From Eledone cirrhosa (lineage: Eukaryota), in the NCBI GenBank assembly GCA_964016885.1, contig OZ024764.1:15376001-15440000 (forward strand): a stretch of DNA of 64,000 nt, given 5' to 3'. The notes under the pieces were generated by a model, which was not told the DNA's origin, made no database searches, and worked only from the letters and a program-made list of their open reading frames with translations. Each line of letters starts with the position of its first letter. Position 1 is the stretch's first letter. Made by a program: the position numbers and the translations under genes. Below are positions 21,301 to 45,300 of this stretch, piece after piece.

Positions 21301-24300
21301 CCACCACCAACATCACCACCAACATCACCATTCTACAAAGACCACCAACACCACCACTGACAACATAACCAACACCACACCACTGTTTTGGTGCCAAGCA
21401 TCCAGTTCACACTACAAAGTTCTTGCTTTGATCATGGGATAAAAAGTGCCCAGTCCACACTCTGAAGTAAACCAGCTAAACCTACATAGGTGTGAGCTGC
21501 AACAACATGATAGGACTGGGGTCCCTATCATTAAAACACCAGATAAACCTCCTATGAGACACAACCTTGTAGGAGGCCAGCTAAACCTACATAGGTGTGA
21601 GCTGTAACAACATGTTAGGACCGGGGTCCCTATCATTAAAACACCAGATAAACCTCCTATGAGATACAACCTTGTAGGAGGCCAGCTAAACCTACATAGG
21701 TGTGAGCTGTAACATGTTAGGACTGGGGTCCCTATCATTAAAACACCAGATAAACCTCCTATGAGATACCACCTTGTAGGAGGCCAGCTAAACCTACATA
21801 GGTGTGAGCTGTAACAACATGATAGGATTGGGGTCCCTATCATTAAAACACCAGATAAACCTCCTATGAGATACAACCTTGTAGGAGGCCAGCTAAACCT
21901 ACATAGGTGTGAGCTGTTACAACATGATAGAACTGGGGTCCCTAATATTAAAACACAGAAAAAACCTACTTCATAGCGGAGGGATGTAAATTTTAATAAT
22001 TATCTTTCATTTATCTATTTTCAGAAAAGCTGGAAATTTTTGGGGTAGCTGCGATAATTTGTTAATTCTAGGACCGAAAGGGGTCCCGTCTCTGCCAATA
22101 TATTCATTTCTCATCCATCATCATCAAACTGGTCTGTTTTTACATCACAACTTTGTCACGGCAATTCTCAACGATGTGTTCGGCATACAGTCTAGGGGAG
22201 GGTGTGCCTGTTCTGGACCCTACGCCCATGTGAGTCGCACAAACACCAACATTGTCCTCATCACCCCTGCCATCATCATCTACACATCAACACCACCACC
22301 ATCATCACCACCACCACCACCACCACCATCAGCATCACCACCACCACCACCACCACCATCACCATCACAAACACCACCACCACCACCATCACCATCATCA
22401 TCACCACAAACACCACCACCACCACTATCACCATCATCATCACCACAAACACCACCACCACCACCATCACCATCACAAACACCACCACCACCACCATCAC
22501 CATCACAAACACCACCACCACCACCATCACCATCATCATCACCACAAACACCACCACCACCACTATCACCATCATCATCACCACAAACACCACCACCACC
22601 ACCATCACCATCATCATCACCACAAACACCACCATCACCATCATCATCACCACAAACACCACCACCACCACCATCACCATCACAAACACCACCACCACCA
22701 CCATCACCATCATCATCACCACAAACACCACCACCACCACCATCACCATCACAAACACCACCACCACCACCATCATCATCACCACAAACACCACCACCAC
22801 CACCACCACCATCATCACCACCACAAACACCACCACCACCATCACCATCATCATCACCACCACCATCACCATCATCATCACCACAAACACCACCACCATC
22901 ACCACCATCATCATCACCACAAACACCACCACCACCACTATCATCATCAACAGCACTACCGTCATCTACACCAGCACCATCATCATCACCACCATCATCT
23001 AACCCATGCTAGCGTGGAGATTGGACGTTAAACGATGATGATGATATACACGTATATATACAGGGGTAGGGTCTCTACTTGGGGTAGGGTCTCTTCTTCC
23101 CATGCATTCTCCTCATTTAGTAATCTATCATGATGACTCTTCCATGCATCTTTCTTCTCAGCACTTGTGAGGGCAAGCTCACCTTTATCATTCCGGATAC
23201 ACTTCTCTCCAATGACATCACAACTATCTCTGACACACTGCTTCGCAATCTTGAATACCTCCTGTTTCTGGTCCTCACGTTGTAAAACATGCTTGAATTT
23301 TCTATCCTCTGCTTCCCTCCTAGCTAAGTATACTTGTCCCCTAGCTTCCCTCTTGGTCTCTATGTAATGTACCCTGCTCCCCCCGTTCTTCCATTCTTTC
23401 CATGCCTGTCTCTTGGCCTTAACTGCTTCATCTACCTTATTGTTCCACCACCAAGTCACTCTCCTCCTGCTTGAGGTCTTACTCCAGCCACAGACCTCAT
23501 CCGTCGCCTCTAGTAAATTATTTTTTAGGAACTCCCAGTTCTCTTCTACATTAAATGTCTCTATCTGTTCTTCTTTACTGTCGTAGGCGTTGAGTAAAAT
23601 ATCTTTAAATCTGTTACTGGTTGAGGGGACTTTCAGCTTCCAGATCTTTCTTCTCCAGGTTGGCCTCTGTTTCCGGGTTCGTCTAGTTCTGACTGTGAGG
23701 TCGCTGACAACTAAGCTATGTTGGGATGTACATTCCTCACTAGGGAAGGCTTTTGTGTTTACGACCGTAAATCTGTCACGTCCTCTGATGAGGATAAAAT
23801 CTAACTGACTAGAGTGCTCCCCTGATCTATAGGTGATCAGGTGGTTGTTGGGTTTTTTAAAGTTTGTGTTACATATCGACATGTCATTGGCGTCGCAGAA
23901 TTCTAGAAGTCTGAATCCTTCCTCATTCCTTGTGCCAACCCCATGGCCTCCATGTACTCTATTGAAGCCGTCGCAGTGTTTACCTACGTGTCCGTTAAAA
24001 TCTCCTGTGATGATTAGGAAGTCCTTGTCGTCTGTTAGAGCAGTAGTGTGTATTAGGGACTCGTAAAACCTATCCTTAAGTTCGTCTGGCAGCCCCGATT
24101 GGGGTGCGTAAGCTGATATCATTGTGGTAATTGTTTTATTCAGGACTAGTCTGAGTTTAATTAGTAGAAAAAAAAAAAATTTCTGCAAATTTCCTACTTG
24201 ACAACCCAATATCATTTATGAATTTTGTATGAAAGTTAAGTATGAAATTTGTAGAAATTAGTAGAAAAACAACAAATTTTTACAAATTTCCTACTTGACA

Positions 24301-42300: not shown

Positions 42301-45300
42301 GTCCCTCTATAGGGTCTACTTGGGGTAGGGTCTCTTCTTCCCATGCATTCTCCTCATTTAGTAATCTATCATGATGACTCTTCCATGCATCTTTCTTCTC
42401 AGCACTTGTGAGGGCAAGCTCACCTTTATCATTCCGGATACACTTCTCTCCAATGACATCACAACTATCTCTGACACACTGCTTCGCAATCTTGAATACC
42501 TCCTGTTTCTGGTCCTCACGTTGTAAAACATGCTTGAATTTTCTATCCTCTGCTTCCCTCCTAGCTAAGTATACTTGTCGCCTAGCTTCCCTCTTGGTCT
42601 CTATGTAATGTACCCTGCTCCCCCCGTTCTTCCATTCTTTCCATGCCTGTCTCTTGGCCTTAACTGCTTCATCTACCTTATTGTTCCACCACCAAGTCAC
42701 TCTCCTCCTGCTTGAGGTCTTACTCCAGCCACAGACCTCATCCGTCGCCGCTAGTAAATTATTTTTTAGGAACTCCCAGTTCTCTTCTACACTAAATGTC
42801 TCTATCTGTTCTTCTTTACTGTCGTAGGCGTTGAGTAAAATATCTTTAAATCTGTTACTGGTTCAGGGGACTTTCAGCTTCCAGATCTTTCTTCTCCAGG
42901 TTGGCCTCTGTTTCCGGGTTCGTCTAGTTCTGACTGTGAGGTCGCTGACAACTAAGCTATGTTGGGAGGTACATTCCTCACTAGGGAAGGCTTTTGTGTT
43001 TACGACCGTCCATCTGTCACGTCCTCTGATGAGGATAAAATCTAACTGACTAGAGTGCTCCCCTGATCTATAGGTGATCAGGTGGTTGTTGGGTTTTTTA
43101 AAGTTTGTGTTACATATCGACATGTCATTGGCGTCGCAGAATTCTAGAAGTCTGAATCCTTCCTCATTCCTTGTGCCAACCCCATGGCCTCCATGTACTC
43201 TATTGAAGCCGTCGCAGTGTTTACCTACGTGTCCGTTAAAATCTCCTGTGATGATTAGGAAGTCCTTGTCGTCTGTTAGAGCAGTAGTGTGTATTAGGGA
43301 CTCGTAAAACCTATCCTTAAGTTCGTCTGGCAGCCCCGATTGGGGTGCGTAAGCTGATATTATTGTGGTAATTGTTTTATTCAGGACTAGTCTGAGTTTA
43401 AATTAGTAGAAAAAAAAAAAATTTCTACAAATTTCCTACTTGACAATCCAATATCATTTATGAATTTTGTATGAAAGTTAAGTATGAAATTTGTAGAAAT
43501 TCATCATCATCATCACCGTTTTACGTCCGTTCTTCCACGCTAGCATGGGTTAGACGGGTTGTCCTGTTGTGGGCAGTGTCTGGTCGGCTGACCTTGTCTT
43601 GCTCATACAGGAACTGATTTGGCTTGATTTCTACAGCTGGATGCCCGTCCTAACACCAACCTCATTTACAGTGACTGCTGGGTGCTTTTTCGTGGCGCCT
43701 ACACGTCCGCTTTACAGTGTGGGCTGGGTGCTTTTTTGCCGTGGCACCTCCACGACCACCTTGCAGTGGGGGGGTGTGGGGGCATATTGTCTATATGCTT
43801 CAGCTTGTACCCATGGGAGGTCGGGTAATAAACCTTTCATTTATAATTAACTCCGTATTCGCACCACCAACTACACAAACGAAGACGGGTGAACTGCACT
43901 GCGTTGAGTACTCTCCACAATATTACATCAAGATTGACCATACGGAATGACCAATTCTATCCAGTGGTGAACCAACAAACATAAAGAAATATATACATAT
44001 ATATATGGCGCGACACAGTTATACAGAAGACCCGCCTTGCCTAAGTACAAAGCGAATCCTACAGTCAGTAGGCACCTCTAACAAAAATACACCCCGGCCC
44101 CACTACCTCCACCCCATCCACACCACCCCCTTAAATGTGAAGTTATGTTGGTACCACAACATCCAGTCCGAAACAAATGAGATTGTGTAGGTGTCACGAC
44201 AAAAAAACACACAGTCCACGCTGTAATGTGGCCGTGTAGGTAACACAGTAAAAACCTCCCAGTCCACACTGTAAATGTGGTTGGTGTTGGGAAGGGCATC
44301 CAGCCATAGAAAACCTGCCAGACAGTCCACGCTGTAATGTGGCCGTGTAGGCAACACGGTAAAAACCTCCCAATCCACACTGTAAACGTGGTTGGTGTTA
44401 GGAAGGGCACCCAGCCGTAGAAAACCCACCAGATAGTCCTATATGAGCAAGACAACCACTCTTGCCTCAAGTGGGAAAACTCCCGTCCAAACCCATGCAA
44501 GCGTGGAAGATGGACGTTAAACGATGATGATGATGATGATGTGGTAGCTCGTCTTATGGTCAGTGTCCAAGTTTCAGACCCGTGCAGCAGTACAGACTCC
44601 TCTGTAGTGACCTTCAGGTCTTTACGAAAGTCTGACTCCCACACTAACTTAAAACTGTGACATGACACCCAGGCTTTGCCCTTCCTCCCAATACATGTAA
44701 AACTGTTTTTGTGCTTCTGATGTGTTTTGTATTGATTTGTTTTTTAGGAATTGCTGGGAATATCGGAGGAGAGAGCTGAAGAGTTTGAAAATATTCTTCT
44801 GGAAGATAGGTTTGTATATATATATCATCATTTCATTTTACGTCCACTTTTCCCTGCTTGCAAGGGTGGGACGGGAACTGATCCTGGCTTGATTTCTACA
44901 GCTGGATGCCCTTCCTAACACCAACCTCATTTACAGTGAGTGCTGGGTGCTTTTAAGCTGTGACACCTCCACGACCACTTTGCAGTGGAATGATAGGGAC
45001 CCCAGTCCCTATCATCTCATTTCTACAGCTGAATAAACTGGAGCAATGTGAAATAAAGTGTCTTGCTCAAGGAAACAACACATCACCTGGTCTGAGAATT
45101 GAACTCACAACCTTTCGATTGCAAGCCCAATGCTCTAACCACTAAGCCATGTGCCTCCATATATTTTTTTTTGGAGGTGTGTGTGTAGGAGGGCATCGGG
45201 CGGTGTTGTGGATAGGATTGGTTTGTTGGGGTGGAGCCATTGGGTGTTAATGTGAGTGGTATTGTGTGTGTGTGTGTGGGGGGGGGGGGATTGCAGGCCC

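What the first reader, a model, noticed from the sequence alone, without database searches (positions are those of the whole stretch)
23066..43827. 21-kb intronic macro-array of alternating RTE retrotransposon and satellite blocks
Seen: five pieces of the same RTE are separated by 96/97-bp satellite blocks of about 44, 33, 27 and 1 units. All share the same 5' truncation point (ctagtctgagttt|) and the same satellite/(CAT)n-tail junction. The outer copies are a 5' part and a 3' end only. Inference: these are not independent insertions; a composite unit (truncated LINE plus about 100-bp spacer) was multimerised by unequal exchange or rolling-circle amplification, while the spacer grew into a satellite. 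The single-monomer unit may record the ancestral state, giving a snapshot of satellite birth coupled to an RT-coding repeat.
Basis: partly seen in the sequence, partly recalled or inferred. Interest (0 to 1): 0.75.

Follow-up and report, generated by a model that had tools for sequence, protein, structure and literature searches.

The report
LINE copied along with transposon-born satellite
A 21-kb block in a likely intron alternates pieces of one retrotransposon with a 97-base tandem repeat made from a small DNA transposon; the retrotransposon likely jumped once into that repeat at a site 0.9 Mb away, and the pair was likely copied here and multiplied by recombination, a clear example of known processes.

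Summary
The anatomy is confirmed: five LINE pieces alternate with 44/33/27/1 monomers and share both junctions. The proposed history is reversed. The monomer is not a unique spacer: 74 of its 97 bp are a permuted copy of an abundant ~83-bp TA-flanked palindromic mariner MITE. The satellite and both junctions occur at only three places in the assembly, within 1.2 Mb. Locus A (0.9 Mb away) keeps the MITE's outer end, has monomers on both sides of one LINE, and AAATT on both sides of it, a likely target-site duplication. So the array likely came first, one truncated LINE inserted, and recombination between the flanking blocks made LINE-satellite multimers that were copied here and to locus B. The middle LINE is a clean recombinant of its two neighbours (unequal crossover, 36557-36809). 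The single monomer is likely a collapse: its paralogue at B has 27 units with variants shared with A. The route of transfer (DNA copying, circle or RNA) is unresolved, and long reads were not available. The scan noted a MITE-born satellite elsewhere in this genome, not this array. New member of a known kind.

The parts
22025..22229 (+). Likely host exon upstream of the array (AG before, GT after, ends in phase 0). Host gene resembles a class V aminotransferase / cysteine desulfurase-like protein from recall only
   Evidence: Sequence and frame; Pfam gave no hit; a PF00266 search of the genome did not ring here
23063..23098 (+). Left junction of the array: a 13-bp templated copy of nearby LINE sequence (18-bp period, 2 copies), preceded by an AT-rich stretch ending in ...TATATACA
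23074..24158 (-). W1: 5' part only of the truncated LINE (endonuclease remnant and linker)
24159..28417 (+). Satellite block 1: 44 monomers of 96-98 bp (one of 87), with 3- and 4-unit higher-order patterns and a block-specific variant in 23 of 44 units
28418..31471 (-). W2: 5'-truncated LINE with (CAT)n tail at left; 25-bp deletion in the 3' UTR, 1-bp frameshift
31472..34661 (+). Satellite block 2: 33 monomers; same variant set, start and end as block 3
34662..37724 (-). W3: recombinant LINE, identical to W4 left of the crossover interval (36557-36809) and to W2 right of it; open frame of 920 aa lacking the N-terminus
37725..40336 (+). Satellite block 3: 27 monomers, duplicate of block 2 with a different unit order
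40337..43400 (-). W4: 5'-truncated LINE with one premature stop and a 15-bp in-frame deletion shared with W3
43401..43501 (+). Single monomer with AAATT at both ends; likely collapsed block. 74 bp are MITE-derived (centre, right TIR with TA, then most of the left TIR); 23 bp are a linker found only at three loci
43502..43827 (-). W5: 326-bp LINE 3' end. Carries the other subfamily state at two linked sites, so likely a separate resident fragment recombined with the composite within its first ~98 bp
43828..44006 (.). Fragment of another interspersed repeat (X), shared with locus B
44007..44540 (+). Short 5'-truncated retroelement (Y) with (GAT)n tail; homology with locus B ends at this tail
44748..44809 (+). 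Host exon downstream of the array (62 bp, phase 0 start)

Best explanation
The array is made of one 5'-truncated LINE and a 97-bp tandem repeat built from a mariner MITE; the LINE likely inserted once into the already tandem repeat at locus A, and the pair was likely copied here and multiplied by DNA recombination. Steps: (1) shown: a ~83-bp TA-flanked palindromic MITE supplies 74 bp of the monomer. (2) Inferred: at locus A (G000:C25:16.2965-16.3054 Mb) one MITE was duplicated with a 23-bp linker and expanded; its hairpin arms likely promote template switching. (3) Inferred from junctions: one LINE inserted into the centre of a monomer, duplicating AAATT. (4) Inferred: recombination between the blocks left and right of the LINE (a circle, or a template switch during break repair) created LINE-satellite-LINE joints. 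(5) Inferred: the multimer was copied into this intron, likely using the tail of a resident 326-bp LINE fragment as homology on the right and a microhomology join on the left; locus B shares the event. (6) Shown in the assembly: a later unequal crossover inside the LINE duplicated one unit (W3). Block lengths then drifted, one down to a single monomer. No function is implied.
For: MITE origin: 1,385 exact hits of one arm genome-wide, control 0; 20 loci read, 13 of 20 captured by a strict pattern as 81-90-bp TA-started palindromes; monomer equals one of them at 69 of 74 positions; 1 of 8 further stretches is a 1,262-bp element with the same TIRs encoding Transposase_1, E 8.7e-23. Confinement: the linker pattern has 160 exact hits, all accounted for by window 92, A 51, B 17; tail junction 6 of 6 hits and 5' junction 5 hits plus 1 variant, all at these loci. 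Locus A: ~56 monomers, one LINE, 3 monomers plus a terminal unit that ends in a full TIR, TA and unrelated flank, and alone keeps the MITE-type GACGAC. AAATT flanks the LINE on both sides, while 19 of 19 free copies continue differently after a 2-nt overlap; 5-bp duplications are also seen by eye at 2 of 20 free copies and at the free copy at 18451-18852. One origin: 4 sites separate all array copies that cover them from 19 of 19 free copies; 4 more unite window and B against A and the free copies. Crossover: all 15 W2/W4 differences on the left are W4-like in W3 and all 10 on the right are W2-like, p 6e-7 under random order; blocks 2 and 3 share variants, start and end. Collapse: B has 27 units in the paralogous position, 10 with a SNP shared with A's last left monomer. 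Reads: monomer contigs at depth 397 and 672 against one unique contig each at 2.0 and 3.7, ratios near 200 and 180 against ~192 monomers in the assembly.
Against: No empty site was seen, so steps 4-5 rest on junction reading. Homology between window and B ends exactly at a (GAT)n retroelement tail, which an RNA route explains more simply. The shared right module is more diverged (20 of 726) than the shared LINE part (20 of 2,033; Fisher p 0.0016), which forces an extra step (an older duplication of the module, then transfer). The resident-fragment reading of W5 rests on two linked sites. W3 has no private difference in 3,043 compared sites, as a false haplotype duplication would also give. The depth ratio uses one unique contig per run, both runs are one sample, and it may be the assembly's source. 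The left TIR end at A is missing and was not found nearby.
Confidence: 0.7

Rival explanations
1. RNA route: locus B (5.6 kb), and perhaps the window array, is a retrocopy of a read-through transcript that ran across LINE, satellite, X and Y and was primed at Y's (GAT)n tail by LINE reverse transcriptase.
For: Window-B homology ends exactly at the tail, with 6 against 11 GAT units and a private variant 65 bp before the tail absent from 12 of 12 free copies; B starts abruptly inside the LINE after a (TA)n run, the usual target of this family; the window's ends share a 6-of-7 match that could be a degenerate TSD.
Against: No clear TSD at B (3 bp at most); all three loci lie within 1.2 Mb of a 3.0-Gb genome; divergence along the shared stretch is uneven; no A-to-G excess among B's private changes; the window's left match is better explained as a 13-bp templated copy.
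Confidence: 0.17
2. The array is real but one unit is an assembly artefact: two haplotypes with 33 and 27 monomers were placed in tandem, creating W3.
For: W3 has 0 private differences; blocks 2 and 3 look like alleles of one block.
Against: W3 joins W4-type and W2-type SNPs 252 bp apart, which needs a molecule carrying both; total monomer depth roughly fits the assembly, though too coarsely to count one unit.
Confidence: 0.08
3. One reading: LINE plus a single ~100-bp spacer was multimerised first, and the spacer then grew into a satellite in each unit; the single monomer is ancestral.
For: The single monomer has one private SNP; W1, W2, W4 and B1 radiate almost star-like, as from one burst.
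Against: Monomer variants absent from the single unit are shared among A, B and the window blocks; A has linker-bearing monomers on both sides of one LINE and the MITE's outer end; the monomer is MITE-derived.
Confidence: 0.04
4. Independent LINE insertions at a preferred site in the MITE centre.
For: The family favours AT-rich targets.
Against: Identical 5' truncation in all copies, against 19 different or longer free copies; shared derived SNPs; the tail junction occurs at none of the dispersed MITEs.
Confidence: 0.01

Closest known systems
MITE-derived tandem repeats: Xstir and miDNA4 of Xenopus (as reviewed in PMC12628747, section 4 part 1 and passages read); Tetris of Drosophila virilis (PMC4079207, search listing only)
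   Same: A tandem repeat made of MITE sequence, with dispersed single MITEs and an array coexisting; stem-loop-driven duplication proposed.
   Different: Here nearly the whole 83-bp MITE, both arms included, forms the monomer with a 23-bp linker, rather than an internal repeat; one founder locus can be pointed to.
TE insertions amplified inside tandem arrays: fw, circe and accord2 in the Drosophila R1 array (PMC5932611, passages); G5 clusters and the duplicated Rsp-Doc5-ProtoP unit at the Responder loci (PMC5411766, passages)
   Same: One insertion in an array rises in copy number with identical junctions, by unequal exchange; composites duplicate to nearby sites.
   Different: Those are large heterochromatic arrays; this is a young 21-kb array in a likely intron, half LINE by length, whose crossover interval can be mapped to 252 bp.
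Spread of Rsp-like through hybrid repeats with 1.688 on the Drosophila X (PMC7403614, passages)
   Same: A rare satellite linked to an abundant repeat moves to new loci on the same chromosome, with one fixed junction and one variable, microhomology-type junction; gene conversion or eccDNA proposed.
   Different: The abundant partner here would be a LINE 3' end; only two transfers are seen; the eccDNA signature named there (end pieces that add up to one unit) is not met, since W1 and W5 together lack about 1.65 kb.

Membership tests
Tc1/mariner-derived MITE (source of the monomer) | Short non-coding element with terminal inverted repeats | tested here: met
   81-90-bp palindromes at 13 of 20 loci by strict pattern, more by eye; one folds as a near-perfect hairpin
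Tc1/mariner-derived MITE (source of the monomer) | TA target site | tested here: met
   13 of 13 captured copies begin with TA and most end with TA; no empty sites compared
Tc1/mariner-derived MITE (source of the monomer) | High dispersed copy number | tested here: met
   1,385 and 2,082 exact hits for two arm patterns, controls 0 and 4; the second count includes satellite monomers
Tc1/mariner-derived MITE (source of the monomer) | Transposase-coding partner with the same TIRs | tested here: met
   L120, 1,262 bp, same first 29 bp, PF01359 E 8.7e-23 over cut-off; a remnant frame of 191 aa
Non-LTR retrotransposon (LINE) insertion by TPRT | RT domain with upstream APE endonuclease | tested here: met
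   RVT_1 E 4.8e-31; endonuclease piece E 7.7e-5 under cut-off, truncated
Non-LTR retrotransposon (LINE) insertion by TPRT | Simple-repeat 3' tail, 5' truncation, target-site duplication | tested here: met
   (CAT)n tail; free copies run up to about 1.0 kb further 5'; AAATT on both sides at locus A, 2 nt of it shared with the LINE
RTE clade specifically | Placement of the RT within the RTE clade | not tested
   No tree against named clades; single-frame layout and tail fit RTE from recall only
Product of unequal crossing-over | Hybrid repeat with one switch point and a duplicated spacer | tested here: met
   15 then 10 sites segregate perfectly; blocks 2 and 3 are duplicates; holds for the assembly, not checked on long reads
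eccDNA / rolling-circle re-integration | Circularly permuted ends that add up to one unit | tested here: not met
   W1 covers positions ~1995-3078 and W5 1-331 of the unit; W5 is likely a different insertion
eccDNA / rolling-circle re-integration | Units born at one time (star-like divergence) | tested here: inconclusive
   Only 3 shared derived sites among W1, W2, W4 and B1, and they conflict; few sites
eccDNA / rolling-circle re-integration | Circles detected physically | not testable with these tools
   Needs circle-enriched DNA
LINE-mediated transduction (retrocopy) | Ends at a retroelement tail | tested here: met
   Window-B homology stops at the (GAT)n tail
LINE-mediated transduction (retrocopy) | Target-site duplication at the new site | tested here: inconclusive
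   3 bp at most at B; a 6-of-7 match in the window

The most novel reading that the evidence does not exclude
Capturing a LINE made a private MITE-born satellite mobile: the LINE's tail, homologous to more than 12,000 dispersed 3' fragments, lets the satellite-LINE unit colonise new sites, by recombination at resident LINE ends or as multi-kilobase retrocopies primed at a neighbouring element's tail. The three loci would then be the first steps of a dispersed satellite family, with every stage from autonomous mariner to intronic macro-array preserved in one genome.
Probability: 0.25. Interest if true: 0.6.

Novelty: new member of a known kind. Interest (0 to 1): 0.4.

Why it matters
Satellite origin is usually inferred from old, homogenised arrays. 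Here the mariner partner, the dispersed MITE, the founder array with its outer end, a single LINE insertion, two nearby copies and a mapped unequal crossover all lie in one assembly at about 1% divergence. That makes the order of events readable and gives a PCR- and long-read-testable locus for rates of block expansion and collapse and for how a rare satellite moves along a chromosome. Each step has precedent in Drosophila or Xenopus, and nothing here shows a function or an effect on the host gene.

Tried and rejected
Empty-site search: contigs of four runs laid on 44535-44815 gave only diverged repeat hits and one exon match; no empty allele, and X19 did not cover the unique part. The splice junction across the array was not obtained, so 'intronic' stays likely, not shown. 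Host gene: Pfam on the upstream exon gave nothing and PF00266 hit 3 other places, not this one; 167 open frames were listed but not scanned. The idea that the T/T tail variant marks this local lineage failed: 12,908 hits genome-wide, so the inverted copy at 18451-18852 is an ordinary separate insertion. A third locus with the RTE-3'/X junction was not found (2 of 40 scored hits cover the whole query; 5,095 candidates). The missing outer part of A's left TIR was not found in the 70 kb held around A. No large segmental duplication links the window with A or B: outside the composite and the right module only interspersed repeats match (first 80 of 235 rows shown for A, 71 of 71 for B). The first junction pattern was mis-specified and caught only W1. 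The automatic TSD function was defined but not run; TSDs of free copies were read by eye. Literature: eight searches found no paper on this array or on cephalopod MITE satellites; the library lacks most subscription journals, and no supplements were read. Runs X1-X16 hold small shares only and say nothing on habitat.
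Full report
1. Observation. The array is as described. Tandem Repeats Finder gives 97-bp blocks at 24159-28417, 31472-34661 and 37725-40336, and splitting gives 44, 33, 27 and 1 monomers. Four 5' junctions and four tail junctions are the same, except that the first 5' junction lacks one A. The LINE is on the minus strand; the middle copy has a 920-aa frame with RVT_1 (E 4.8e-31) and a truncated endonuclease hit under the cut-off. 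Free copies run up to about 1.0 kb further 5', so no copy here has its own start. The RTE label fits the layout from recall but was not tested by a tree. Earlier notes call this genome a likely octopus; I did not test that. The array likely lies in an intron: GT at 22230 and AG at 44746-44747 are in phase, a contig of run X20 matches exactly the 62-bp exon inside a longer record, and a contig under another organism label matches it with 6 differences in 75 letters.

2. The monomer is a MITE. One arm of the monomer has 1,385 exact hits genome-wide against 0 for the control. I read 20 loci, picked from the first 100 listed, 12 of them because two arms were paired; a strict pattern captured 13 of 20 as 81-90-bp palindromes starting with TA. 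Read across the unit boundary, the monomer matches one of them at 69 of 74 positions; the other 23 bp are a linker. Among 8 further stretches, one is a 1,262-bp element with the same TIRs and a Transposase_1 hit at E 8.7e-23. The source is thus a mariner-derived MITE, not a unique spacer.

3. Only three loci. The linker pattern has 160 exact hits in 3.0 Gb, and the window (92), locus A (51) and locus B (17) account for all of them. The tail junction has 6 hits and the 5' junction 5 plus the W1 variant, all at these loci. A lies 0.88 Mb downstream in reverse orientation, B 0.26 Mb upstream.

4. Locus A reads as the founder. In window orientation it is: SINE end, MITE arm, ~56 monomers, one LINE of 3,078 bp, 3 monomers, and a last unit ending in a full TIR, TA and unrelated flank. 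That last unit alone keeps the MITE-type GACGAC, and the flank shares 8 letters with the start of the linker. AAATT stands on both sides of the LINE, whereas 19 of 19 free copies continue differently after 2 shared letters. Five-base duplications are seen by eye at 2 of 20 free copies and at the copy at 18451-18852; two others have 20-30 bp. Linker-bearing monomers on both sides of the LINE imply that a short array existed before the insertion (inference). The outer part of the left TIR is missing and was not found nearby.

5. One insertion, then copying. Four sites separate every array copy that covers them from 19 of 19 free copies; four more unite window and B against A and the free copies. 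A differs from W2-W4 at 34 of ~3,060 sites, W2 from W4 at 23 of 3,038, B1 from W4 at 20 of 2,033. W1, W2, W4 and B1 share only three derived sites, in conflicting pairs, so they likely split at about one time (few sites).

6. A mapped unequal crossover. W3 equals W4 at all 1,876 sites left of 36557 and W2 at all 916 sites right of 36809; the 15 and 10 informative differences segregate perfectly, p 6e-7 under random order. Blocks 2 and 3, which such a crossover duplicates, share variants, first units and last units but differ in order and number. Against: W3 has no private change, as a false haplotype duplication would also give. Monomer contigs stand at depth 397 and 672 against 2.0 and 3.7 for one unique contig each, ratios near the ~192 monomers assembled; this is coarse, from one sample that may be the source.

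7. The single monomer is likely a collapse. B reads LINE 5' part, 27 monomers, LINE 3' 330 bp, then the same right module as the window, so its block is paralogous to the single unit. It holds 10 units with a SNP shared with A's last left monomer, 13 of a type found 11 times at A, and 3 with a SNP shared with blocks 2 and 3; the single unit has none of these. It has the head of the first unit after the LINE and the standard tail, which is the minimal recombinant between a block's ends (inference).

8. How the composite got here is the open step. W5 and B2 carry the alternative state at two linked sites where A and W2-W4 carry a variant with 12,908 genomic hits, so the 326-bp end is likely a resident fragment joined within its first ~98 bp. 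The left junction has a 13-bp templated copy after an AT-rich run. One homologous and one microhomology-type end, plus proximity, favour DNA copying during break repair, from A or from a circle excised at A. The module shared by window and B is more diverged (20 of 726) than their LINE parts (20 of 2,033; p 0.0016), which suggests that it was duplicated earlier. Against DNA copying, the homology stops exactly at Y's (GAT)n tail, as a retrocopy would; the lead came from note e1-9581139, whose own case I did not check. No clear TSD supports it, and no empty site was found.

9. Known kinds. MITE-born tandem repeats are reviewed in PMC12628747 (passages and section 4 part 1). Insertions that rise in copy number inside arrays are described for the R1 array (PMC5932611, passages) and the Responder loci (PMC5411766, passages). 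Spread of a rare satellite through a hybrid with an abundant repeat is described in PMC7403614 (passages). Eight searches found no paper on this array. The scan holds no note on this sequence or place but has one on another MITE-born satellite and one on an array grown beside a LINE in an intron of this genome.

10. Verdict. Real, young and unusually legible, but each step has precedent: new member of a known kind, interest 0.4. My confidence is about 0.95 for the MITE origin, 0.9 for one insertion into an existing array at A, 0.85 for the crossover and 0.6 for DNA-based transfer.

Noticed in passing
G000:C25:16302989-16303282 (L024): Inside locus A's left block about one monomer is inverted between the palindromic arms, a likely hairpin-mediated template switch.
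   Followed up: partly
L042 (G000:C1:270597300-270597530): Two MITE copies lie 122 bp apart as an inverted duplication with a hairpin linker, possibly an early stage of the same tandem-forming process.
   Followed up: no
L123 (G000:C1:172168425-172168580): A MITE copy whose centre has expanded into about five short tandem units.
   Followed up: no
window 18451-18852: A separate 403-bp 3' fragment of the same LINE, on the opposite strand, inserted in a 72-bp minisatellite with a likely 5-bp duplication.
   Followed up: partly
window 18003-18452, 50131-50394, 55688-56645; also around loci A and B: A 72-bp minisatellite family recurs many times in both orientations; 105-bp (21472, 45384, 49409) and 48-49-bp families (2006, 19066) also recur, the last resembling the LINE/SINE 3' UTR.
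   Followed up: no
L120 (G000:C1:144524858-144526119): A 1,262-bp mariner element with intact matching TIRs and a broken transposase frame; the likely partner family of the MITE.
   Followed up: partly
window 51257-54607: A 1,117-codon stop-free frame on the + strand running through 24-bp and (CAC/AAC)n repeats; may be a repeat-rich exon or chance.
   Followed up: no
window 59439-63998: Several diverged tandem copies of a unit of about 1 kb, seen as repeated translations in the frame list.
   Followed up: no
window 48334-48510 and 48999-49136: Two further likely exons of the host gene downstream of the array, judged by eye from open frames.
   Followed up: no
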